DNA of 58,594 nt, the filler included, from Catajapyx aquilonaris (taxonomy: Eukaryota): NCBI GenBank assembly GCA_000934665.2. It is 2 parts of 2 records of this genome, joined end to end, with 100 filler letters (N's around TTAATTAATTAA, not from the genome) between each part and the next. Parts side by side here need not be neighbours in the genome. Positions count along the whole stretch, not along the records: positions 28,611 to 58,594 come from KZ539247.1; 1 more part is not named here. One strand, given 5' to 3'. A model generated the notes under the pieces. The model searched no databases, was not told where the DNA came from, and saw only the letters and a program-made list of their open reading frames with translations. Position 1 is the first letter of the stretch; each line of letters opens with the position of its first letter. This document shows, in pieces, positions 23,122 through 52,205 of the stretch. Both the position numbers and the translations under genes were made by a program.

Positions 23122-24569
23122 CTATTGATTGGAGTGTTCGGCATCTTTGAACTGTGCCAGAACTATCAGATATGTTGTGACAGATCCAGCCACCTGGAAG
23201 TGACACACTTTTCATTAATATTATTTGTAACAAAAAATGTCCCATCTCTTAATTATTGTGATGCGTCACTAGTTATTTACCGCTGTAAGTAGGCCTCGGT
23301 TGACTGTGAAATAATTGGCAGCTGTTATCTCCAATGGTGTACTGCTCATCATTTGGATGAGGGAATCCAGCTGGAAGTTGTTTTGAGAATAATAATGTTG
23401 AAGAGGATTTGTGATAATTCAAGGATACTTACATTTGCCTTCATTTTCTGGTCGGAAACAATGCGATTGGCGAAGGTGAGGTCTGGCAATGGTCTTGAAC
23501 TCTGAAATTGGAAATTGCGATTAGTTCCTTCAAATTCTGTTGACTTTAGGTAGCGTATCATTCCCCATATATCTTTGTTGTGTCTTATTAAACTACTTAC
23601 TATCCGTGGAATCGATCCCAAAATGACGGTGAATGCAACTGCTGATGATATGACGATAAAGATGTTGCTAAGACATGCCACAATGACAGAAATATCGTGT
23701 TTCACCAGAATTAAGTAAAATAGCAGAGTGGTGATATATAAAATAAAATTGAGGTACAGAATTGCAATGCACACGCCGAAGGTTCTGCTTATGGATCCCA
23801 CCAAGGGGCAAATTTCTTGAAATAGATCAATGGCAGAGATCAACTTTCTAAGCATTTTGTCTTCATTCCTCCTTCCATTAGTAGACATGCGCAACCAAGC
23901 ACATAATAGTATAATTTCCTCGTTAAATTCGGTCAGTAGTAGTCGGATAAGGTTTGCCAAGAATACTATCAAAACAGCAAACAAGAGGAACAAAAATGCG
24001 CAGTGCCATTTCAAAAACCAAGCAAGGATATTTTCTGGTACTATCTGTGTACCACTTCTGGCATCCGAGACAATTGACACAACGATAGACGTCGTAGGCA
24101 TGACGACTGCAACGAGAACTAACGACCTGGACCATCGACGCAGTGTCTTTTCCTGTTGTTGTACTTTCAGTCGTGAGAACTGGTGGATCAGATTCCATGT
24201 TTGAGGCACAGATGGTTGAAACAGCAAGTAATTTAACCACGGAACTCCGTACATGATTGCGTGTACAGAAAGGAATGTGAACCCCTCTATTCCACCTTTT
24301 TCGTAGAGGTTGCTCCACTCATCTAGTGGGAAACAGATGAACACTGCTATATACGTGGCCAATAAAATGAAGTGCACCAGTGTGGGCCACCGTTGGTACC
24401 ACTGCCACTTTGGATTGTTCTTGGGCCAAGGACAGGGAGAGATTCCTCCAAAGGTGGCCAGGATACCCAATGGTCTGAACGTGGTCCAAAACGCGTTTTC
24501 CTTTCCCTTCGTATAATCCTCTGACTGGGTCTCTTTCACCTGAATCACACTAGACATCCGAAAGGGCAT
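23122..24569 (-). CDS. Gustatory receptor GR-8, ~399 aa (sister of GR-1, inverted orientation)
   Basis: Exons 24569-23601, 23501-23433, 23370-23281, 23193-23122; phase-0 GT..AG introns; ends VAGSVTTYLIVLAQFKDAEHSNQ*. Confidence 0.9.
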
Positions 24570-25625
24570 GATTGAACGAGTGATTTTTGAAGGCCCTGTT
24601 GGGTTTGTCACTGACAATCACAATGGTTGTCACAATAGTTCAAAAACCTCAATTGCCAAAATATGTTTCAGAAATGACACAATTTCAAGATTGTGAAAGT
24701 CCGAAATCAACCAGTACTGAACGTGCACATAAGCCAACTGTTTTGTTATTCTCAAAGGAACTTAACCACACCCAATGCTGATTAATGATCCTGAAAAGGC
24801 GGTCCGCTGCGTTGAAATAGTGTCCATTAATTTTGTCATCCTTTGTTATGGGCGTGCTCATTGTTAAGAAAATATTATAAGCACTTAAGACACGCAATAA
24901 CCACATGAAGTGTGTATTGATAATGGTTGAGAAAGATCGTAGACCACTCCCTCTACAATATTTATCTAACTCGCTTTATATCGAACTAACTTAGTTGCAT
25001 AAGAGCTATTATTCTTTTATTTCTATTGTGTCTGAATTGTCAGTGATTAATGAATTTCCAATTCCAGTGTCTGCATAACCGGTAAAGAAAATCTAAAAAT
25101 AAAGTTATTGTCTCACAATATCCCATTGGTGGGGCACAAGAAGAAGATATTCCATCACTTGTAGGGATTGACTCGCTTTGCGAGGCGGGGCGGCTTCGCC
25201 CCCCCCCCCCNCCGGCACTCTCCGATGCGAACATAGCAATTCTTTTTACCCAAAAATCGGTCGGAGCGGGGTGGCATCCGTTTACAGAACCCATGACGCC
25301 ATCGCGAAAGGTGTGGAGTAGGAGAATGCGCCCTAGCTGACGTATGGTGAGAAAAGGCACTGAGATGGGATTAGAGTAGATCCAGATTGTGAGCAGATGG
25401 GGGGAGGGAACGCCGCGCCGGAGAGGGGCTATTGTTCTCCGGCGGCTTAATGAGGAGCAGATGGACAAGCTGGCACGTGCAAAAGTCGACTTTTTGCCAA
25501 GACCAAAACGGCTGGGAATTTTGCGATTTTGAGGATTTTTGGCATCGCTAAACATGTGGCAAGAAATCCAACGGAATTTCAACCAGAGCTCTACGACCTC
25601 GGGAAGTGCGAAATCTTTTCCCTCC

Positions 25626-34489: not shown

Positions 34490-34762
34490 CCGAAGCAGTG
34501 GTGGCGGAGGGGATATGGTATCCGACTGCTAATCGGGAGGTCCTGGGTTCGAATCCCGGTGCCGGCAACTCTAACCGTGGTTTTCTGTGGTTTCCCACGG
34601 TTCCTCCAGGAGAATTCCGGAGTTGTTTCCTAAACTAATAGGCCACAGCCGCCTCCTTCCTTTCCTATCCCAAAAAGCGCAGTAAAAAACGAAACGAAGA
34701 GTTCCAGTCAAAAAAATATATACATCCCCCCTAAAGAGCCGCCGGCTGATAACGGGGTATGA

Positions 34763-34840: not shown

Positions 34841-35510
34841 GTTATAATATGTCCACTGTATATGCGTGAAAATCTTTGCTTTATGCGTGAGAGAATGACG
34901 TTTACAAACGTATGCGTCATTCCCTCACGCATATTGAAGCACCTGCGTCATACGACCTATAGGTGACTGCATAACACGCAGTACATTCCCTATACTATGC
35001 TATAAACAAAGCAGCGGGGGATTCCCCATAATAATCTCTCGGGTCAGACTCATTTGCAATTATTTTGGCGAGAAAAGGTGGGAGGGCTTGAGGAGATGAG
35101 TGTTTCAACGCTTATAGATTGTCTTTGTCGCCATAGCTTCATAAATGCAAATGGGCCGCGTGCTAATCCGTTTATCTTGGGCCCGACAGATGGCGGAGCC
35201 GGACTTTAGAAGGCGAGATGGAGGGGGGGGTTTAGTGATGAGGTTTTGAGGGCGCCTCGCGCTTCTAAACTTAGGACTATGGCTTAGGACTCGAGCTTAA
35301 AATTTGCGATCTCCCAGAGAAATTCAAGGCCGCATCAATTTGGCATGCAAATAGTAATTAACCAGTCGGAATTACACTCGGATGCAAAAAAAAAGGAGGC
35401 CATTTCGTGTGCCTGGCCATTTCCCATGGTAATTAACAATGTGAATGAGGCGCCATGATTTTCTCATCCCATTTCCCTCAGTACGATCAATGTTCATAAA
35501 ATGATCTTAC

Positions 35511-35555
35511 CTGTTTGTGCATCTCCACGTTGAGTCCGTAAGACATCTCGTAGTA
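35511..35555 (-). CDS. gro: groucho coding exon 4 ([15 protein letters not shown])
   Basis: 45 nt, tttattacag| ... |gtaaga, phase 0-0. Confidence 0.95.
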
Positions 35556-38500
35556 CTGTAATAAAGAGGCGATAATTGATTAATTGGCGAAATTGGCGAC
35601 ATGTCATGATTGCTGGCCAGGCTAATCGCAAGGTTGATTTATATTTTTTGCATGTTTTTTTTCTCCGCAATTGTCAGCCTGGCCAGCAATTGCCTGGAAG
35701 TTGTTGCCATGTTTATCCAACATGCGATGAGTCAAACTTGGCAACATCCTCAACGTGCACTATTCATGCAGTGGTTAATAAGCTGAGCGCAAGCATTAGG
35801 ACAACACTGGTCAATGGGATCAAACTGATCAGTAATAAATTGGCCATCAGTGACACCACTATAACCAATCACGAACAGGGTTGTCGATTGGTATAATTTA
35901 CGTGAACTATTCTTACGTTTACAATCGTTATTAATTTTACTCGAATTTCTTCTGTAGAGTATTAGCCAATGTTTTGAACAACATTTTGATTGACCAGAGT
36001 TTAGATGATTTGCTATGAACTATTAGTTTCTACCAATAGCGTGCAAGGAAGTGGGCCAAAAGCGGCTCATCTGCATATTTTTAGTGACATAAAGAAAAGC
36101 AGCCGGAAGAAGATGGGGGGTGAAAATATTTCCGCCCTCCACCTACTCCCCCCTTTTTTTCCAAAATAATTAAAAACGGAGGGACAGGGAGGAAGGGATG
36201 ATTTATCTTTTTTTGTAACAGGGCCTCTGTACTCACCATCACATAATGCCTTTGCATTTCCGTTTTCTCTTGCACTAACTTTTCCAATTCCATTTTTAGA
36301 CTGCAAAAGAAAAGAAGAAAAAAAAATGCGACAGGGGCCCGATGAGTGAGGAGCCAGGAATGTAAACACACATCGCAGCCACACACATCACAAGAAAAAA
36401 CACACGGCAGACACACACGAAAATAATTAGTGATCTGTGTGACAATCAAATAAATAAAGTGAGGCTAAAAAGAGGCAAAAGCGCAAGCTTTGTAAGGTCA
36501 CGTGACGCGGCCACTAATTCTGGAGCCAAAATGGCCGACGCCACGCGGCCTTTTTTTGTATATAAATTGCGGCCAACTATTTCAACTATCACCTAATAGT
36601 GAGATGTATTAGAGGTGGGTGGGGGGGAAATTAAGTGATCGGGGTTGAATTGGGGGTGACACTGGACCATCATCGTCTGGTGCGTCATTCATCAGTGATT
36701 GACTGGCGTTTGCACTTTGATACCTCTCGACCAGGTTTTAACACTACTCGAGTTTGTTGACATTTCTTATCCGACCGGTGATGTCAGCCACTGGTGATAC
36801 GGATAGTGTGTCAAGTGCTTCGTAATTCAACAAAGTCGCGCTCCCTTCCTTGAAACACATCGAGAGAGAAAAAAACAACGGCTTTGACGCAATCAGAAAT
36901 AATACCGACTATGGATTCAAAATGGCGTTTAGATTGGCACCACTGCGTACACCAACCGTAACGTTTTTGATTGGCCATATAAATCATGTTTGGACGATAA
37001 CTGGCCAGGTGCTGCTCAATTTGGTGACCACTGGCAGTAAAACAGGCTGACCTTTTCCCCGGGTGTGCCACTGGTCAACAGGCTAGGTGTTGCCTAGCCC
37101 AGCATGACAAGTTCGGTTCCCACTAATAAACCGGTATTAACATTGGTTTCGGGGCTGTCACGACCAAGTGCCCTGTTTGACCATTCAGGTAACCACTCGC
37201 CCCTAACCACGGTTAACCATACTATTTGGTTGCCAACCCAACCATTTCCATACCCATTATCATTGTTGCTGTTTGACCAACAGGCACTACAGTCCCAATC
37301 ATATCCTTCGAGAGCAAATCTTGGGTAATCCATTACAAACTGTGCAAGTCCCTATAAACTAGCACAGTCCCATGTAAACCGAGAAAGTTCCAAGTAATCC
37401 CGTCCCCACTGAACTCAAGGCTCCGTGCACTGAACTGATAAAATCCATGCTAAACCGGTTTATCCAACAGGAAATCCCGCGGAAACCCCATCCAGTCCCC
37501 AGTAAACCGCCTGCATTCCTCGTAAACCGGTTTATCCAACAGGAAATCCCGCGGAAATCCCATCCAGTCCCCAATAAACCGCCTAAATTCTTCGTAAACC
37601 GGTTTATCCAACAGGAAACCCCATCCAGTCCCCAGTAAACCGCCTGCATTCCTCGTAAACCGGTTTATCCAACAGGAAATCCCATCCAGTCCCCAGTAAA
37701 CCGCCTGAATTCCTCGTAAACCGGTTTATCCAACAGGAAATCCCGCTGAAATCCCATCCAGTCCCCAGTAAACCGCCTGAATTCCTCGTAAACCGGTTTA
37801 TCCAACAGGAAATCCCATCCAGTCCGCAGTGAACCGCCTAAATTCCTCGTAAACCTGGTTTTGTTAGATTTGCAGACTGCAAATAGGACCCGTGCCTCTC
37901 TCCTCCAGTTTTGGTGACACGAGTGGCATCCGAGTTTGCATGGTTGGTAGATGAGGCAACATCGGGGCCCTCGCTGGCTAATTGGCGCTCGGCGGGTTAG
38001 AGATGTCGACTGGAGAGGATGGTGGAGGGGGATGGGAGGTGGGTGGCAGTGTGGGGCCGGCCTGCCTGACCACGCCGATTAGCTCGGTCGCCGTGCGGGG
38101 CCAGAGGGGGGGAGGTTGTGGGCTAGCCTAGGGGATGGGGGAGGAGGAGGAGGAGGAGAGGTTCTCTCTTGCTCTTCATTCCTGGGCCTGGTGTTCGCCT
38201 AGTCCCGGTGTTCGCCTAGCTCCAAAAAAGCCCCTCCTCTTTAATACCCCCCAATGAATACAAATCAAGCTATACTTGCGAGACACCCCAAATATTGAAC
38301 TGCATGCAATTTCATACCCGTTTTTATACCCATCCTGTCTACACCGTGCATAATTAGCCAAGCATTTCTTCACACGACTAGTACCCGGTTCTAATCAACA
38401 CCCACCCACGCCTTCCTCCAAATTGGGAGCAGGAAGTCTGCAGAAAAGTTCTTTCCGCTCATTGTTTCCCATGTGAAATAATCCCCGCCCCCAATCATTC

Positions 38501-41500
38501 CTTGCAAGAAGGTTCAAGACCCTGTGCTCTATTATCTCACTTACGTAATTTTCGCAACAAAAAAAACTTCCGCGCAAAAAAATGACTTGTTTTCGTGCAT
38601 GCACAGGCCCGTGACAAGCCCGGGCAACGTTTGTTGACATACAGTGTCATTGATCCGCGACCTAATCCGGCTCTTATTACTCACTCCCACCCCTCTCTAT
38701 ACTATCACCGACTATATACTCGGGGCTTCCGGATTTCGAAAACGATCCCCTCCCCCTTTTTCGCAATTTGCGAAAAAACGGTAATCCTCACGAATTTGCG
38801 ATCCATTTGAAAGAGGGGAAATACACCCGTTAGAGAAGGAAGAGCTTCCAGTCATGCGTGGGGCTTATGAGGCAGGAAAAAGGTGGGGGGTTTCAAAATT
38901 TCACCCACCAGTCACGCCATGACCTTAGACACGTTCAAAATCCTATTTACAGGGTCGAGGTCACCCAGGTTGGTTCAACCCATTTTACACGTGCTCCTAA
39001 ACCAGTTGAAATATAGTCAGCGGTCCTCCGAGAATGCACATCTGGCACCTCCCACTTTTCACATTTCCACGCATGCGCCAAAGGAGGGTACCAGGTGAAG
39101 CGAACATTATCTCATTAACAACATTCAACTGGAAAAGAAAATATTACGCAGGCGCTTGTGCTTTTTATGTGTAAATTGATATTGAGATATGATGTGTACT
39201 TATGTGTGTAATTGTTTTATAAAAGTGACAAACGTTCTTTCAAAAACGTCACTTATGCCACCTGGCAACCTGGGATACTTATTAGTGGAAATTTGAAAAG
39301 TGGGAGGCCGCTGTCTATATACGTAGTATGTTATATACTGTACCTCGCATTTTTTTAACGGGTCTGAATAATTGCTTAACTTTACAATGTTAATACTTGG
39401 GGAATAATTTATTGTTTGTTTGCAGTTCCTTCCTTGTTTGGCTCTCAAAGCCAAGTAGCGGGGCCCCTTCAAAACCGTACTTACGACCCGAAATAAGCTC
39501 TTTTGGCGGTATCCGCCTCGGAGTTTGTTTTAGGGGGGGAAAACCCGGTCAAATTCTGGAAGGAAAATTATTTATTTTGGATGCCCACCTCCCCTCCCTT
39601 TCTCTCTCCCTCCATGGCTATTCTGTGGATCTAGTGAATAAAACAGTGCGCCAAGGGAGAGGGGGGGTAGAAGGATAAAGGAGGCCAATGGCAATCTTCC
39701 CAACTCCTCGCCATTTGTGTGTTTGCACAATACATGCAAATCTCCTCCCCCCTCCCAACCAGTCCTGCACCCCCTTTCCGCTCTGAGACGTGCGCCGTAA
39801 TGTCCATTGTTTGAACTAGCAGCCGTGGGATTACCTGCATTCCCCCCTGCCTTTTAAAAAAAGTATTGCTATTTCCAGGCTCACTAATCACACAATCAGA
39901 CCAATGAAATGGGGCAGAGTTTTTCGAGAGCATTCGCATGTTCTTATCGGTTACTACTTTTTTTTCATATTTCATTATCGTTATCGAAACACTCGAGTCC
40001 AATGTCACCCACTTGATGGTCCAGCACCTTCTCTCTCTTTTTTTTATATGTATAAATGTCCTTAAGAGGTCAGGGGTCAGAGGTTAGTGCCATAAAGTGC
40101 AGGTCCTTTTTTTGTGGTTTGGCGGCAATGTTATACTCACCATGACATAATGCCTCTGAATCTCAATTTTCTCGCTCGCCAACTTCTCGCACTCCAGTTT
40201 GAGGCTGAGAAGTATACAGGGGGGGATAGAGAAGGAAGTGTTGTTCAAGCCATGTCTTACCATCATGATAAAAGGGGGTGGGGGCAAGGTGGAGGATATG
40301 TTTCAGATATAAGAAATTGGCCAAATTGTGGTCCGGAAATTTTGAGTAAGGGGAGGAAATATAGTTTTGCTTTTTTATGCGCCACATTCCCAATCAGAAA
40401 TGTGTGCCCCTTTTTTGCCTTACGTTATCATCACATAATATTTATTCAGCTCTAGTCGCCTATTAGGGAAATGGGCCAAATTTTATGGTGTAACCTGCAA
40501 CATAGGCTACACACTCTGATTCTATGTTTGGACTAATGCTCGTAAATGACAACATAGTTGTAGGCAGTCCAAATGCATTTCAAAAATAATAGAAAAATAT
40601 TGTGTCGTACTACAGCTGAATAAACAATCGTAAATAGTTACAGTACTAAACTAATAAATTCACAGTTTTGCTTGAGAGATTAACATTGGCACGATTGCAG
40701 GGCACTTTCAGAACCAGTAATCTCTATAGTACAGCTGTTACAATTGGTCAGATTGGATCATGTGACCAGCAGGGGTGCCAATGTTACAGGGTTTAGAAAA
40801 CTACTCAAAATTTGAGAATAGCTTTTAAAAAATTTGTTACAAATATGAAAAAATTGAATCTCCCCAAAATATTCAGCCAATCTTGATGTCATTGGACGCC
40901 AAAAATACGCGGTATGTCACAAAGTTGACAATTTTTTTAAAACACATCTTAATTAAACCATGTGCAAGCCGGACTTGACACCGTTTCAATACGCAACCAT
41001 TAAATACAGCTGGCAAGTCATAAATCCGCCTTAACTTATGGCGAGTTAACCAATTTACCTCCACGAGCCTCCAATTTTAATCCAACATAATTCATCTTAA
41101 TTCCACAGCTACAAATCGCCAAAAAAATGAGTAAATTCGCATTCAGTAAACCGGCTTGACAGTCGAGCTAAAAAATTGTGCTCAAATGGCTGACAAAAAC
41201 ACGTAACATCATTCCTGCAAAATTTATGCCAGGAAATATTCGAAACATGCCATCGGATTTTGCAAAACTATCCCCAGCAAAATAATTCAGCTCCAATCCT
41301 GAAAAACTATTGCTTTCATGCCAGAATTTATGCGAAAATCCGCCTCAACGCGTTTTTGACTATAGGTTAAGCCAAAAATTCTGCTTAAAAATAATTAGCA
41401 CGATACTAAATCATTACTTTCACGTACAGCAGAAGAGCAGAGAATTTGACATCTGTTACATACACTTTATGCATACTTTTTAAGCGAATTTTATGTCAGG

Positions 41501-44500
41501 CAATTTCAGGGGGTCTTTTTTTTGTCCATGTGCAAAGTTTGCACTACATACTTTCATCTGGAGTGCAAATTATTTACTTGGAGCTCTTAATTTTTACTTA
41601 CTGAGTTTACTTACTGTTTGCACTCCATGGCTCACTTTGGAGTGCAAATAATAATTTTGGAGTGCAACATCCTAATATTTCGACCCCTGGTACATACTGT
41701 ATGCATACTCTTTAAATTAATTTAAGTCGGGTAATATTTTGACTTGCATTGTACGATAAAAGACCTTTAAAAAAAACTGCTGTTGTGCAATGTTCAGTAG
41801 CAATATATTTTCTCTCAATTCCTCCCACTGGGTTTGCAAATATGAGCAGGCGGATTCACGCAGATTCCGGAATCCTGCTGCAGAATCTGGCATGAAGCAG
41901 CAGCAGGGGTTCAAGTTGTAATGGGTCAAAATTGGTGGTGTCGACCACCCCTGGTTCCTTCCTCCCTCCAAGTTGGAGTGGTTGTCCAGAGCTCGGAGGG
42001 AACAAAGCACCTTGTGGAGTCCCCCCTTTTCCTCTTACTCCTAACACGGATCCCCACCTGGCAATGGGCCATATACCCCCGCTTTTCCCCTCTCTCTCTC
42101 TCTCTTCCCTCCCCCGCCTTCCCCCTCCTCTTTTGGCAGCAGCAGCCCTTTTACAGGGAGGGAGGAAAATGCATACAGAGAGTGCTGTTAGAAGGACCCA
42201 CAGCTGCCCAACCCCCTAAGTCAACACCAGGATGTACAGTTGTTTGCCCAGTCTGCTTTAATACTGTATAAATACACAGCAGCAAAAATGTGTGTGCACC
42301 CTGTAAGAAAATTGGCGCAAAAAAAAACTTTCTGCGCCATCATGAAAAGCTATAATGAAATTCTTCCCTTTTTGGCAAAAGGCAGCTCCAGTTGATTCCA
42401 CTTGGAAGACTCCACGATTGACACCCAAGGCTTTTTTATTTCGCGCTCCAAATCACGGCTCTCGAAATGACACCAACAAAGTCGCAAAAAAAATTTATTG
42501 GGGCCAGCTACCAGTTCGATATATCGAATTTGTTTATGAAAATACCAGTGGGTTCCCGCCCACCCCCCAGCAAATACCAGGGAATTATTCATTTACATTG
42601 TTGCTCACTGTCTGCGAACGCGTGTGTGTGTATATTTCCGGTCTGGAGAGCTCGACCTCCATCCGAGTGCAACAGTGCAAGATGGCAATAATAATGGTTT
42701 TCATCCCCTCCCACTCGAACCCCCTACAAAACAAACAATGGGCCGCCTACAAAATGCAATGCCCGCAACAATTGAGGCGTAACTTGTTATTCATATCGAT
42801 CCAGTCGCATAACTTCACGTGCCTCGGGCCTCAACGATTTTTATTATTAATATTACCAGCAATCCCGGCTATAAAATGAATTATTTTTTTTAAATGAGCG
42901 CAACCAAGTGCGCAACACAGTTCGCGCAAATTGTTTCCAGCCACTAAGCTTGAGGGGGTAATAATATGGCCGACTTTTGCTCTGGAACGAACCTTACAGG
43001 CCCACTTGGACGCGTCTTGCTATCCTTGTGAGGAATTTTTTTTCGCGTTTTTCCTATCCTTGTCAGGAATTTTGTCATTACGAGGCAGTTTTCCTGTACC
43101 TCATAGTGAACACACGCCTCACAAGGATAGGGTAAAATCGAAACAGTACCTCATAAAGACAGTAAAAATATATTTCGCCAAAATTTTGTGTTTCCTTGTA
43201 GGTTAGGTTAGGTTAGTTTTAAATTTTAAATATTGGAAAAACCTCACAAGGATGGGAATGCGCGCCTGTGTGCGCGAGTGTGGGTGCGCACTCGGTTGCG
43301 CTCGTAAAAAATTCATCCTTTTCATAGTATTCCAAAATTGCAGCTTATTTTGTAAGTAGCTATCAACGCTATTTTTTTAGCACACGACTACTAGCAGACT
43401 GGTCATTTTTTTTAAACCTCCCCATTTTCTCTGGGATTTGAAGCAGCCCCCCAACCTCCCCTGTCCCCTTCCTCCCCTCTTCCGCCACATCCTCCCACAA
43501 GCCCTCCCCTCCTACCCCCTGCACACAAAACCAGACCCGAAAACCCGGCCTGTGCCCGCAGACCTGGCCCGCAGCCAGCTCTATAACCCTGCCTCACCAT
43601 TTTCCACCAAAAACCTAATTTCTCCGGCAGGAATCGCCGGGGGAGAGAGAGCAGGCAACACTGTCCGGTCACGTGATCCCAGACAGCCAATGGCGAGACG
43701 CGCGGTATCACGTGACCGCTACAAAGCAAGGTTGCCAAATCCTCGCTAATAAGGGCCGAATTCAGAGAGGTTGCTTAACGTAATCGCGCCCGATTAAATC
43801 CTTTAGTCATCCTCGATTAGCAAATTTAAAAGTGCTAGCAAGTGCGATTAGGGGGCGCTTAGCGCTAATCGCGGTCTTTGTATTAGCAGGTTGATTAAAT
43901 TTCCTAATCGAGGCTGACTAAAGGATTTAATCGGGCGCGTTTACGTTAAGCAACCTCTCTGAATTCGGCCCTAAATAATTTGACGTACACAATTGGTCGA
44001 CACCACCTTTTTTTTTAGACCCCCCTCCTTATTTCAATTAGTAATGAGACCTCTTCCCAGCGAGGTGTTGGTACTCACTTGTGGTACTGTGCCTGAAGGA
44101 AGTTGAATTCCTCCTTGATGCGGTCGCACGACTCGCCAACCGTGAACTTGAACGGTTGGCCAGGTTGCGGTGGACCCTGTGGACACAAGGGGGAAAAAAC
44201 ACATTTTTTAGAATTTTGAACCGTGACCTCTGGTGATCAAATGGGGGTGACGACATTTCCCAAGGATGCCAACCCTCCCCCATGTCACTTTTTTTTTTTA
44301 ACTTCCAAGCAGGGGGGGGGGGGGGGGGNTTATGACTGGTCGTGACAGGCATCTGGGAGGAATGAAGGACCCTCCTTGTTTCTCCTGGCAGCCGAGACCC
44401 AAAATGGGCGCCAACTTGGCAACCATTTGGCCCCTTCCCTAAATGCCTCATTGCTCTGCCCCTGGATTATGAGGTGTCCATAAAGACTGCGCACCACTCT

Positions 44501-50500: not shown

Positions 50501-52205
50501 GGCTCTGTTCACACGGACATTAGTTGGCTCCAGTTGCCCAATAAACTAGACATTCACATGGGTCAGGTTCCTCCTCGAATCAGGTAGCGCTACAGTTATC
50601 GTGATTTGAACGTAGCCAAGATGCCAACTGAAGTTGCGAGTAGGCAAGATGCCAACCAGCTATTAGACAAGATTCCAACTGAAGTTGGCATGTTCAGTTC
50701 CGACCACGTTGTCTGTTGGCTCCCCCCTGTGTGTAAATCGCCCTGGGCCTGCCACACTGTTAAAAAGGGAGGGGCCTCTGATTTACGAGCCTGATAACTG
50801 CCTCTCAGTGATACCAATCGGCCATTCCAGGGATGGCCAAAAAACATCTCTTTTTTTATTTTTCATACTGTAGGTGAGATGTTTTGTGTGGGTGGGTGGG
50901 CGGGTGGTTTTACATTTTTTAAAAANGGGGGGGGGGGGGGGGTGGTTTTACATTTTTAAAAAAACGGAGTGGGGGTTCGTGCAAGTCAGCCATGCGGCAA
51001 TAATTCCATTCGGCCAACCTTGACACGCCATCATCAGGCAAGCGGTGTATGGTGGTAGTCGCAGTGATGAGGTGCGTGGTTGATGGAGTGAGAAAATTCG
51101 CGTCGCGGTTCCCTGATCACGTCGGAAGGAGACGGGGCCCGGGGTCTCATGCCGCCCTGGCTACTGTTTGTGTTACTGCAGTTAACATAGGGGGGGGGNN
51201 NNNNNNNNNNNNNNNNNNNNNNNNNNNNNNNNNNNNNNNNNNNNNNNNNNNNNNNNNNNNNNNNNNNNNNNNNNNNNNNNNNNNNNNNNNNNNNNNNNNN
51301 NNNNNNNNNNNNNNNNNNNGGGGGGGGGGGGTGCCAACAGCTACATGTTGGCACCTTGATTCCAGCAGTCACGTGATCAAAACAGGCTGTGGGGTTGGCT
51401 GAATCGGATCACGTGACAGCATGGGTGCCAACAGTTGCCGTCAGATGTAAGAAGACCTTAACTCAAAAACTAGCACGCATACTCTGCACTAATCCTCCCT
51501 GACTCAGAGAGGATTAGTGCATGCGACTTTCACCCTTACTAGTTTTTGAGTTACGGTCTTCTTACATCTGACGGCAGCTGTTGGCACCTTGTCGAGTAAC
51601 TTGACAGCAGGGTCGCCAATGTTGATTCATTATTAGTTAAAAGGGCCTTCAATTACTATAGCAGGGCATTGCCTTTGTTGCGATTCATGTTTGGTTATGT
51701 GAGCCAGAGGAGTAATGGGAGAGTAAATGAGCACGTGGGACATGACCGGCAGGGTTGCCAACGGCTATCGGACAAATTTTATTCGAGTCAAACATTTTAC
51801 GTGCTGTTATCTACAAACACGTGCCAATTTTTGTCGACTTGTCACATGTCGCGATCATGTTTCGACCCGCGTCTGTTCCTTATTAAAAGCACTGATAATG
51901 TAAAGTGTAATATTTCTTTCAGGTCCCAACCATGCAGGCGAATGCGTGCCGGCATATCCGCGTGCAATAAACGGGTGATGACGTCGCCACAATAACATTC
52001 GTTTGTGTCAAGCCGGGATGTCATCACGGCCGCAGTCTCGAGCGCGTCCAACTCGCACATGGTGTGAACCGGACCGTGTCTCGACCGCGTCTGGAGTCAC
52101 GTGCCCCCATGTACCCCCCCGGTGTCCCCAACACGTGCACCAACTTACCGGGTGTCGGGCCGCCGCCGCTGCTGCTGCCGCCGCCGCGTTCATCGAGGGA
52201 TACAT
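35511..52205 (-). CDS. gro: groucho/TLE corepressor, 5' part (Q domain); the rest of the gene is not found in this window
   Basis: Spliced exons 52205-52149, 44176-44079, [40204-40141 or 36300-36237], 35555-35511 give MYPSMNA10[59 protein letters not shown], the Gro/TLE N-terminal Q domain. Confidence 0.95.
36237..36300 (-). CDS. gro: groucho exon 3b (alternative): (N)[21 protein letters not shown]
   Basis: 64 nt; strong polypyrimidine acceptor tttcttcttttcttttgcag|, donor |gtgagt; phase 2-0. Confidence 0.9.
37451..37855. repeat. Minisatellite of 61/72-bp units in the groucho 3a-3b intron
   Basis: taaaccggtttatccaacaggaaa at 37451, 37523, 37595, 37656, 37717, 37789 plus a partial copy. Confidence 0.9.
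40141..40204 (-). CDS. gro: groucho exon 3a (alternative): (N)[21 protein letters not shown]
   Basis: 64 nt; acceptor tatacttctcag|, donor |gtgagt; phase 2-0. Confidence 0.9.
43008..43266. mobile_element. ~255-bp MITE-like repeat, copy 2
   Basis: Near-identical to 31168-31421; contains taggttaggttaggttag. Confidence 0.75.
43753..43971. mobile_element. PIF/Harbinger (Tourist-like) MITE, 219 bp
   Basis: TAA|gggccgaattcagagaggttgcttaacgtaa ... ttacgttaagcaacctctctgaattcggccc|TAA; ~68-bp near-perfect TIRs and a 3-bp TAA TSD. Confidence 0.88.
44079..44176 (-). CDS. gro: groucho coding exon 2 ([32 protein letters not shown]+AA)
   Basis: 98 nt; ttgtgtccacag| ... |gtgagt; phase 0-2. Confidence 0.95.
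51424..51588. repeat. 165-bp nested fold-back, probable MITE, in groucho intron 1
   Basis: ggtgccaacagttgccgtcagatgtaagaagaccttaactcaaaaactag and its reverse complement enclose a second stem tgcactaatcctc / gaggattagtgca. Confidence 0.75.
52149..52205 (-). CDS. gro: groucho coding exon 1 ([19 protein letters not shown])
   Basis: ATG at 52205; MYPS..RHP is the Gro/TLE N-terminus; donor |gtaagt, phase 0; possible 5'UTR acceptor at 52273-52274. Confidence 0.9.

What the first reader, a model, noticed from the sequence alone, without database searches (positions are those of the whole stretch)
36237..40204. Tandemly duplicated, mutually exclusive exon 3 in the groucho Q (oligomerisation) domain
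Seen: two 64-nt exons on the - strand, 40204-40141 ([21 protein letters not shown]) and 36300-36237 ([21 protein letters not shown]). Both have canonical AG/GTGAGT sites and phase 2-to-0, and lie between single copies of exons 2 and 4. Since 64 is not a multiple of 3, including both or neither frameshifts the protein, so only one can be used. They differ at 6 of 21 residues plus many synonymous sites without stops, which suggests an old duplication under selection. Known: this segment lies in the long coiled-coil helix of the Gro/TLE Q domain that drives tetramerisation and TCF binding; vertebrate TLE reads roughly [22 protein letters not shown]. Exon 3a keeps the ancestral first half (TEM>IEI), 3b keeps the second half (LEC>MEL, AS>VQ). 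Inference: a splice switch making Groucho isoforms with different coiled-coil surfaces, and so possibly different oligomer or partner specificity. I recall [11 protein letters not shown] variants in insect Groucho entries, which would make it ancient; this is unverified.
Basis: partly seen in the sequence, partly recalled or inferred. Interest (0 to 1): 0.85.

Follow-up and report, generated by a model that had tools for sequence, protein, structure and literature searches.

The report
Alternative Groucho Q-domain exon pair
An insect-type Groucho co-repressor gene carries two tandem 64-base exons of which only one can be used per transcript, giving two versions of its oligomerisation helix; the same pair is already annotated in many insects, so it is real and old but not new.

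Summary
On the minus strand, two 64-nt exons (40204-40141 and 36300-36237) lie between single copies of groucho exon 2 (44176-44079) and exon 4 (35555-35511). Both have CAG|...|GTGAGT sites and both match the same part of Pfam TLE_N.

They differ at 6 of 21 residues and at 7 synonymous codons. Similarity stops at the exon borders, so this is an old duplication and not an assembly artefact.

The pair is orthologous to an "A" (S/T10-I13-I15) and "B" (Q10-T13-M15) exon pair. RefSeq already models this pair as alternative isoforms of one gene in 14 named insect species of 5 orders. In 12 of 13 isoform pairs checked, the two proteins differ only inside this exon.

Nine of 78 unnamed contigs (5 independent groups) show the same A-then-B order. 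Chelicerates, molluscs, nemerteans, a brachiopod and starfish show a single form.

Using both exons or neither shifts the reading frame. I found no conserved RNA pairing element. Expression in this organism could not be tested, and the functional effect on the coiled coil is inferred.

My literature searches found no paper on it, and an earlier report of this scan reached the same reading on another genome. It is a new member of a known kind, of moderate interest.

The parts
52149..52205 (-). groucho exon 1, coding part (ATG ... CCG|gtaagt; 19 codons, [19 protein letters not shown])
   Evidence: the only MYP/MFP start upstream of exon 2 that is followed by a GTAAGT donor. It resembles the N-termini of named insect Groucho proteins.
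44079..44176 (-). groucho exon 2 (98 nt, phase 0 start, ends with 2 bases AA of a split codon)
   Evidence: cacag|GGT...CAC AA|gtgagt; tblastn gives 96% identity to Thrips palmi Groucho residues 60-85.
40141..40204 (-). exon 3a, A-type alternative exon ([21 protein letters not shown])
   Evidence: The peptide is identical to that of 46 of the 120 listed hits and to many named insect proteins.
36301..40140 (-). 3,840-nt intron between the two alternative exons; it holds a 61/72-nt tandem array at 37451-37861
   Evidence: It has no similarity to any of the 78 related loci outside the exons.
36237..36300 (-). exon 3b, B-type alternative exon ([21 protein letters not shown])
   Evidence: It carries the B-type signature Q10, T13, M15 seen in insect B isoforms.
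35511..35555 (-). groucho exon 4 (45 nt, [15 protein letters not shown], phase 0 to 0)
   Evidence: TLE_N profile positions 45-62.

Best explanation
The window holds the 5' part of an insect-type groucho/TLE co-repressor gene: exons 1, 2, 3a, 3b and 4 on the minus strand. Exons 5 onward lie beyond the window start.

Exons 3a and 3b are the 'A' and 'B' members of an old tandem exon duplication that is spliced in a mutually exclusive way. Each mRNA takes one of them, which swaps 21 residues in the middle of the Q-domain coiled coil.

Shown:
- the anatomy of the exons;
- homology of both copies to the same TLE_N segment;
- conservation of both types, and of their A-then-B order, in other insects;
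- annotated isoforms of one gene that differ only in this exon.

Follows directly from the sequence: because each exon is 64 nt, taking both or neither shifts the frame. Such transcripts cannot encode Groucho and would probably be removed by nonsense-mediated decay.

Inferred: the two versions differ at two predicted core positions of the coiled coil (heptad a: C/L; d: I/M), one flanking position (e) and three outward positions. They therefore probably tune the stability or pairing preference of Groucho oligomers, or a partner-binding surface.
For: Anatomy.

Same domain segment: (TLE_N positions 23/24-46 for both, above the gathering score). Searches align both to the same 21 residues of the solved TLE1 Q-domain chains 4OM2/4OM3.

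Old duplication: local alignment of each exon with 200 nt of flank on each side finds similarity only from 3 nt before to 7 nt after the exon. There are 7 synonymous and 6 non-synonymous codon differences.

Both types from one gene (RefSeq isoforms in one 90% cluster on one contig):
- Thrips palmi;
- Schistocerca gregaria, Rhopalosiphum maidis, Adelges cooleyi, Melanaphis sacchari, Lycorma delicatula, Camponotus floridanus, Anoplolepis gracilipes, Polyergus mexicanus, Temnothorax nylanderi, Acromyrmex echinatior;
- Planococcus citri, Arctopsyche grandis, Neodiprion.

12 of 13 A/B isoform pairs have equal length and differ at only 3-8 positions within a span of at most 15 residues.

Genomic tandem order: 9 of 78 unnamed contigs carry two exon-3 copies, always A upstream of B on one strand. 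They form 5 independent groups.

Type signatures: among full-length proteins, A has C5, L8 and A9 in 11 of 11 distinct peptides and I13 and I15 in 10 of 11. The Q10 class, which also includes non-insect single-exon forms, has Q10 in 21 of 23 and T13 and M15 in 22 of 23.

Frame: one search shows both 3a+3b and exon 2 joined to exon 4 are frameshifted. In 7 spliced-looking contigs of other species, the shifted frames reach a stop 1-72 codons after the start of exon 4.

Heptad register: one register puts hydrophobic residues at 17 of 21 a/d positions, against 13 for the next best. The variable residues fall on f, a, e, f, b, d.
Against: There is no transcript evidence for this organism. No RNA holder was listed, so no reads could be laid.

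Once the type-defining codons are removed, nucleotide identity no longer separates A from B orthologues. Orthology therefore rests on the diagnostic residues, the conserved order and the annotated isoforms, not on a tree.

Several lineages list only one type, so loss of use of one exon does happen and could have happened here. Only A: beetles, Lepidoptera, Folsomia, mayflies, Bacillus rossius, Anabrus. Only B: mosquitoes and other Diptera, Bemisia, bees, Nasonia.

No conserved docking/selector RNA pairing was found, so the only exclusivity device shown is the reading frame.

Within the window neither shifted frame meets a stop. The stop would lie in exons that are outside the window.

The effect on oligomerisation is not tested. 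The heptad assignment is a simple count, not read from the crystal structure.
Confidence: 0.85

Rival explanations
1. Only one of the two exons is still used in this species; the other is an unused relic of the old duplication (a pseudo-exon).
For: There are no transcript data for this organism. In many insect groups the listed isoforms carry only one type. The window's 3b differs from the commonest insect B forms at positions 5 and 9.
Against: Both copies keep an open frame, a CAG acceptor preceded by a pyrimidine-rich stretch, and a GTGAGT donor. 3a is identical to the most common insect A peptide. 3b keeps Q10, T13, M15 and the invariant K2, K7, K12 and QRHYVM. After the age implied by 7 synonymous differences, an unused 64-nt exon would be expected to have lost its frame or splice sites.
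Confidence: 0.08
2. The second copy is an assembly artefact: a collapsed haplotype or a misplaced piece of a second groucho paralogue.
For: The window contains several N runs, and the genome could not be searched for paralogues.
Against: No N lies between exon 4 and exon 2. Similarity between the copies ends at the exon borders and they share only 46 of 63 bases, which is not what haplotypes or recent duplicates look like. The same A-then-B arrangement occurs in 5 independent groups of unnamed contigs. Both types are modelled from one gene in 14 named species.
Confidence: 0.02
3. The exons are alternative but not strictly exclusive. Regulated inclusion of both, or of neither, is used to make a frameshifted, unproductive or truncated transcript that lowers Groucho dosage.
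For: The frame rule means such transcripts cannot encode full-length protein. No RNA device enforcing one-or-the-other choice was found.
Against: None of the full-length isoforms examined shows both exon 3 copies or none. The one protein with two copies is a long bird TLE1 entry whose two copies have different flanking sequence. 12 of 13 A/B pairs are clean swaps. Protein collections would not show unproductive transcripts in any case, so this is neither supported nor excluded.
Confidence: 0.05

Closest known systems
Annotated A/B isoform pairs of insect groucho / 'transducin-like enhancer protein 4' genes in RefSeq (for example Lycorma delicatula X1/X2, Rhopalosiphum maidis X1/X2, Camponotus floridanus X6/X3, Schistocerca gregaria X5/X7, Arctopsyche grandis X4/X5, Thrips palmi X3/X2)
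   Same: The same 21-residue segment is swapped and the isoform length is unchanged. The type signatures match (A: S/T10, I13, I15; B: Q10, T13, M15). The flanking exon sequences are the same. The window's 3a peptide is identical to the commonest insect A peptide.
   Different: The window's exact 3b peptide was not found in the protein collection. For the window there is only genomic sequence and no transcript model. Here the 3a-3b intron is 3.8 kb, against about 0.3 to 6.7 kb in the unnamed contigs.
Human TLE1 Q (tetramerisation) domain, solved structures 4OM2 and 4OM3
   Same: Both window exons align to the same 21 residues of the solved chains (chain positions 50-70 of 4OM2 and 34-54 of 4OM3), which read [21 protein letters not shown]. 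A review describes the domain as a dimeric coiled coil that dimerises head to head into a tetramer and mediates TCF binding (PMC7458405, passages read).
   Different: Vertebrates have several TLE genes with one exon each at this place in the proteins seen here, not an alternative pair. 3a differs from the solved sequence at 2 positions (13, 15) and 3b at 4 (3, 5, 9, 10). The primary structure paper was not held, so residue-level contacts were not checked.
Mutually exclusive exon clusters of arthropods made by tandem exon duplication (Dscam1 exon clusters, 14-3-3 zeta, Mhc); recalled from general knowledge, not from a call
   Same: Adjacent homologous exons of equal length and phase, with one chosen per transcript.
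   Different: Those clusters are known for docking-site/selector RNA pairing. No such conserved pairing was found here. This is a two-member cluster in which the reading frame alone already forbids both or neither.
Single-exon forms in chelicerates, a myriapod, molluscs, nemerteans, Lingula and starfish
   Same: The same exon, with the same flanking exons 2 and 4.
   Different: Only one form appears per gene among all listed isoforms. It is LKLECEKLA[ST]EKTEM in spiders, scorpions, ticks, horseshoe crab and a millipede, and LKMECEKLAQEKTEM in the Spiralia and starfish examined.

Membership tests
Groucho/TLE co-repressor gene | N-terminal Q domain (Pfam TLE_N, PF03920) | tested here: met
   the ORFs around 3a and 3b score 37.2 and 33.5 bits (cut-off 32) at profile positions 23/24-46. 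Exon 4 scores 30.5 bits at positions 45-62; exon 2 is 96% identical to Thrips palmi Groucho.
Groucho/TLE co-repressor gene | C-terminal WD40 propeller and the central GP/CcN/SP regions | tested here: inconclusive
   These are not in the window. tblastn with full-length Groucho and motif scans of all six frames find nothing after exon 4. A Pfam scan of 150 of the 275 minus-strand ORFs of 45 aa or more (those at 1-34634) gave no WD40 hit. The gene must continue beyond the window start, and the whole genome is not held.
Mutually exclusive exons from tandem exon duplication | Adjacent homologous exons of equal length and equal splice phase between shared constitutive exons | tested here: met
   both are 64 nt with the same phase, 15 of 21 residues are identical, and exons 2 and 4 are single.
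Mutually exclusive exons from tandem exon duplication | Including both or neither destroys the reading frame | tested here: met
   64 is not a multiple of 3. One search shows the shifted translations. One search shows early stops in both shifted frames in 7 of 7 spliced-looking contigs of other species.
Mutually exclusive exons from tandem exon duplication | Transcripts of this organism contain exactly one of the two | not testable with these tools
   No run could be used (see Tried and rejected). In orthologues, 12 of 13 annotated isoform pairs are clean swaps.
Mutually exclusive exons from tandem exon duplication | A dedicated exclusivity device: steric hindrance from a very short intron, U2/U12 incompatibility, or docking/selector RNA pairing | tested here: not met
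   The intron between the copies is 3,840 nt. Both exons have AG acceptors and GTGAGT donors. No conserved intronic block is shared with any of the 78 loci. Inverted repeats and duplex energies are at the level of shuffled controls. Pairing elements specific to this lineage cannot be excluded.
Insect groucho A/B exon pair | Upstream copy with S/T10, I13, I15; downstream copy with Q10, T13, M15 | tested here: met
   for the window. A lies upstream of B in 9 of 9 two-copy loci (5 independent groups). One search gives the type signatures.

The most novel reading that the evidence does not exclude
The A/B exon choice may be an ancient oligomerisation code for Groucho, dating at least to the common ancestor of Orthoptera, Hemiptera, Thysanoptera, Hymenoptera and Trichoptera. 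The A-type signature is also present in a springtail and in mayflies. By changing two predicted core positions and a surface patch of the Q-domain coiled coil, the cell could sort Groucho into separate homo-oligomer pools or change which transcription factors the Q domain binds. The flies examined (mosquitoes, sand flies and others) list only the B-like form, and beetles and moths only the A form. That may be why the switch has gone unstudied in the usual model insects.
Probability: 0.25. Interest if true: 0.7.

Novelty: new member of a known kind. Interest (0 to 1): 0.42.

Why it matters
Groucho/TLE is a central co-repressor of Notch, Wnt and segmentation pathways. How far its repression depends on Q-domain oligomerisation is still debated (my general knowledge).

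A conserved either/or exon in the middle of the oligomerisation helix is a natural experiment. Insects that keep both exons make two Q domains that differ at a handful of defined positions. This gives a direct way to ask, by biochemistry and by exon-specific deletion, whether oligomer stability, isoform mixing or partner choice matters in vivo.

For annotation, both exons must be modelled as alternatives. Joining both, or missing one, yields a broken gene model.

Tried and rejected
1. Transcript evidence in this organism. The look-up of sequencing runs on window:35450-44250 (kind rna): no RNA holder listed, none was listed. Read laying therefore could not be used.

2. The window's own genome is not held, so paralogues and the rest of the gene could not be sought.

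3. Exons 5 onward. tblastn, motif scans in six frames and Pfam on 150 of 275 minus-strand ORFs found none. I conclude that they lie outside the window, not that they are absent.

4. Docking/selector RNA pairing.
- blastn of the 9.1-kb gene segment against the two-copy loci and against all 78 loci gave no non-exonic hit at E <= 1e-3.
- Unconstrained duplex folding of 10 pairs of intron regions against 30 mononucleotide shuffles each gave z from -2.44 to +2.17, and no pair beat all shuffles. This method is crude because it pairs whole regions.
- The inverted-repeat scan of 35500-44100 gave 13 pairs. Those linking different introns (39552-39574 with 43972-43994, 23 nt, 78%; 35969-35986 with 40236-40253, 18 nt, 83%) are short, AT-rich or have about 10-bp cores, as expected by chance in 8.6 kb.
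- Scans of four other loci gave mostly low-complexity or local pairs, with no shared architecture.

5. Orthology from nucleotides alone. With codons 10, 13 and 15 (or 3, 5, 9, 10, 13, 15) removed, identities no longer separate A from B. I therefore built no tree on 63 nt.

6. The primary paper on the TLE1 Q-domain structure is not held. Only a review's passages were read.

7. Literature. Searches for 'groucho' with 'mutually exclusive exons' (6 papers), with 'mutually exclusive', 'splicing' and 'Q domain' (2 papers), with 'exon duplication' (4 papers), and with 'splice variants', 'coiled-coil' and 'insects' (1 paper) gave no paper on this exon pair by title or abstract. For PMC7290859 I read the matching passages, and the two terms are unrelated there.

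8. My first reading of locus L014 as a partly spliced transcript was wrong (see Noticed in passing).

9. No complex or structure prediction was run, because the report does not claim a specific binding result.


Full report
**What is in the sequence**

On the minus strand the window carries the 5' part of a groucho/TLE gene.
- Exon 1 (coding part 52205-52149) starts with ATG, encodes 19 residues and ends at a GTAAGT donor.
- Exon 2 is 44176-44079 (98 nt). It starts after cacag and ends with the two bases AA before GTGAGT.
- Exon 4 is 35555-35511 (45 nt, [15 protein letters not shown]), lying between ttacag and GTAAGA.
- Between exons 2 and 4 lie the two reported exons: 40204-40141 ([21 protein letters not shown]) and 36300-36237 ([21 protein letters not shown]). 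Each is 64 nt, follows CAG and is followed by GTGAGT.
- The first base of either exon (C or T) completes the split codon AA- to Asn.

tblastn with two full-length Thrips palmi isoforms hits exon 2, both exon 3 copies and exon 4, and nothing else. Motif scans of all six frames find no exon 5 or WD40 sequence. The gene therefore continues past the window start, and intron 4 is longer than 35 kb. No N run interrupts the exon 2 to exon 4 interval.

**Is it more than chance, and is it an artefact?**

Both stop-to-stop ORFs around the exons reach the curated Pfam threshold for TLE_N at the same profile positions. Both align to the same 21 residues of the solved human TLE1 Q-domain chains 4OM2/4OM3.

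The two copies share 46 of 63 in-frame bases. Six codons differ in amino acid (positions 3, 5, 9, 10, 13, 15) and seven differ synonymously. A local alignment of each exon with 200 nt of flank finds similarity only from 3 nt before to 7 nt after the exon. That is the picture of an old duplication with both copies kept open. It is not the picture of a haplotype, a recent duplicate or a mis-join.

**What it corresponds to elsewhere**

A search with the 3a region returned 734 proteins, of which the best 120 were listed. Among these, 46 carry exactly the 3a peptide, including named entries from ants, wasps, beetles, moths, a cockroach and others. A search with the 3b region returned 87 proteins. 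Most carry LKMECEKLAQEKTEM, the form of molluscs, nemerteans, Lingula, an annelid and echinoderms.

A third search, with a full-length thrips isoform, listed 120 arthropod and other Groucho clusters. In hexapods two types appear:
- an 'A' type with S or T at position 10, I at 13 and I at 15;
- a 'B' type with Q10, T13 and M15.

Opening 30 clusters member by member shows both types among RefSeq isoforms of one gene in 14 named species:
- Thrips palmi (Thysanoptera);
- Schistocerca gregaria (Orthoptera);
- Rhopalosiphum maidis, Adelges cooleyi, Melanaphis sacchari, Lycorma delicatula and Planococcus citri (Hemiptera);
- Camponotus floridanus, Anoplolepis gracilipes, Polyergus mexicanus, Temnothorax nylanderi, Acromyrmex echinatior and Neodiprion (Hymenoptera);
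- Arctopsyche grandis (Trichoptera).

In 12 of 13 A/B pairs compared, the two proteins have the same length and differ at only 3-8 positions inside a span of at most 15 residues. This is the mark of a same-size exon swap. The thirteenth pair (Melanaphis X2/X3) also differs in length elsewhere.

Other groups show only one type:
- Only A was listed for the beetle, moth, Folsomia, mayfly, Bacillus rossius and Anabrus clusters.
- Only B was listed for mosquitoes and other flies, Bemisia, bees and Nasonia.
- Spiders, scorpions, ticks, horseshoe crab and a millipede show a single form, LKLECEKLA[ST]EKTEM.

At most 15 members per cluster are listed, and annotation can miss an exon, so 'only one type' is not proof of loss.

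**Genomic confirmation of the tandem order**

A scan of metagenome contigs with the 3a ORF gave 78 loci. Nine of them hold two exon-3 copies on one strand, always A upstream and B downstream, spaced about 0.3 to 6.7 kb apart. By pairwise identity they form five independent groups:
- L005/L006 (with L007 covering the A exon only);
- L009/L010;
- L014;
- L018/L019/L043;
- L022.

By blastn, the window's 3a matches their A exons best (83-89%). Its 3b matches the B exons of L005 and L014 best. When the diagnostic codons are removed, however, nucleotide identity no longer separates A from B. Orthology therefore rests on the signature residues, the conserved order and the isoform annotation. Independent duplications with convergence are unlikely but are not formally excluded by the 63 nt.

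**How it most likely works**

Shown: the two exons are alternatives for the same 21 residues of the Q domain. Because 64 is not a multiple of 3, using both or neither shifts the frame. Inside the window the shifted frames stay open through exon 4. In seven spliced-looking contigs of other species, both shifted frames stop 1-72 codons after the start of exon 4, whereas the true frame runs on for about 690-745 codons in the three full-length contigs. Wrong combinations would therefore give early stops, and I infer that they would be removed by nonsense-mediated decay.

Other known exclusivity devices do not apply or were not found:
- The intron between the copies is 3,840 nt, so there is no steric block.
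- Both exons have ordinary GT-AG sites.
- I found no conserved intronic block and no inverted repeat above chance that could serve as a docking/selector pair.

A lineage-specific pairing element remains possible. Testing for one needs genomes of close relatives, which were not among the loci.

**What the swap does to the protein (inference)**

A review describes the Q domain as a dimeric coiled coil that dimerises head to head into the active tetramer and mediates TCF binding (PMC7458405, passages read).

Counting hydrophobic residues over 71 residues of a Lycorma isoform, one heptad register stands out: 17 of 21 a/d positions are hydrophobic, against 13 for the next best. In that register the window's six differences fall as follows:

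| Position | Heptad letter | Change (3a/3b) |
|---|---|---|
| 3 | f | L/M |
| 5 | a | C/L |
| 9 | e | A/V |
| 10 | f | S/Q |
| 13 | b | I/T |
| 15 | d | I/M |

Two predicted core positions, one flanking position and three outward positions therefore change.

Across full-length proteins the A type is very constrained: C5, L8 and A9 are invariant in 11 distinct peptides. The Q10 class, which also includes the single exons of non-insects, keeps Q10, T13 and M15 but varies at positions 1, 3, 5, 8 and 9. This pattern fits two versions kept for different properties. Which property differs (stability, self-sorting or partner surface) is untested.

The coordinates, splice sites, phases, residue count, domain assignment, vertebrate comparison and the recalled insect variants all hold.

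The suggestion that each copy kept one ancestral half fits the chelicerate and myriapod form. Spiralian and starfish proteins, however, are 3b-like throughout, so the ancestral state is open.

The main correction concerns novelty. The pair is already modelled in many RefSeq insect genes, and an earlier report of this scan on another genome (e1-7513160) reached the same conclusion, which I checked independently here. Four full-text searches found no paper describing it.

**Verdict**

This is a real, conserved, mutually exclusive exon pair in the Groucho Q domain. It is a further instance of an old and little-discussed splicing switch. Confidence in that reading is 0.85. Use of both exons in this species and the functional consequence remain to be shown. 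Interest is moderate (0.42). Novelty: a new member of a known kind.

Noticed in passing
window 23352-24617 (-): An intronless 422-codon ORF matches Pfam 7tm_7, the insect chemosensory (gustatory-type) receptor family (E 1e-12, 48.5 bits, cut-off 26.6). It lies on the same strand as groucho, inside what must be groucho intron 4, so it appears to be a nested gene.
   Followed up: partly
window 43747-43829 and 43895-43977: A large inverted repeat with 83-nt arms, 94% complementary, with 65 nt between them. It sits in intron 2, about 100-330 nt downstream of the exon 2 donor. It looks like a small foldback transposon, and no Rfam family matched.
   Followed up: partly
window 37451-37861: A tandem array of 61/72-nt units (about 5 copies, 85-87% matches) in the intron between exons 3a and 3b. 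It produces the repetitive long ORFs seen there.
   Followed up: no
window 34495-34567 (+): A borderline Rfam tRNA match (32 bits, gathering score 29, E 0.008), but ARAGORN finds no tRNA there. It may be a decayed tRNA or a tRNA-derived repeat.
   Followed up: partly
L014 340-470 (with 230-293 and 783-1080): In this unnamed 1,268-nt contig the A-type exon is fused in frame to a second, diverged copy of the 3' half of exon 2. It sits only about 50 nt after the ordinary exon 2 donor. The B-type exon follows 313 nt later, and exon 4 runs straight into exon 5 sequence. How the fused copy would be spliced is unclear.
   Followed up: partly
L003, L017, L028 (and the spliced-looking L044, L055, L069): Unnamed contigs with very short introns carry an A-type exon followed by exon 4 within about 60-140 nt, with no B copy between them. 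Some lineages therefore appear to have the A type alone in their DNA.
   Followed up: no
P0394, P0411, P0381: A second, more divergent Groucho-like cluster (about 72% identity to the thrips query) includes a Zootermopsis entry. It has a different N-terminus and a single S/T10-TEM type exon. It may be a second paralogue in some insects.
   Followed up: no
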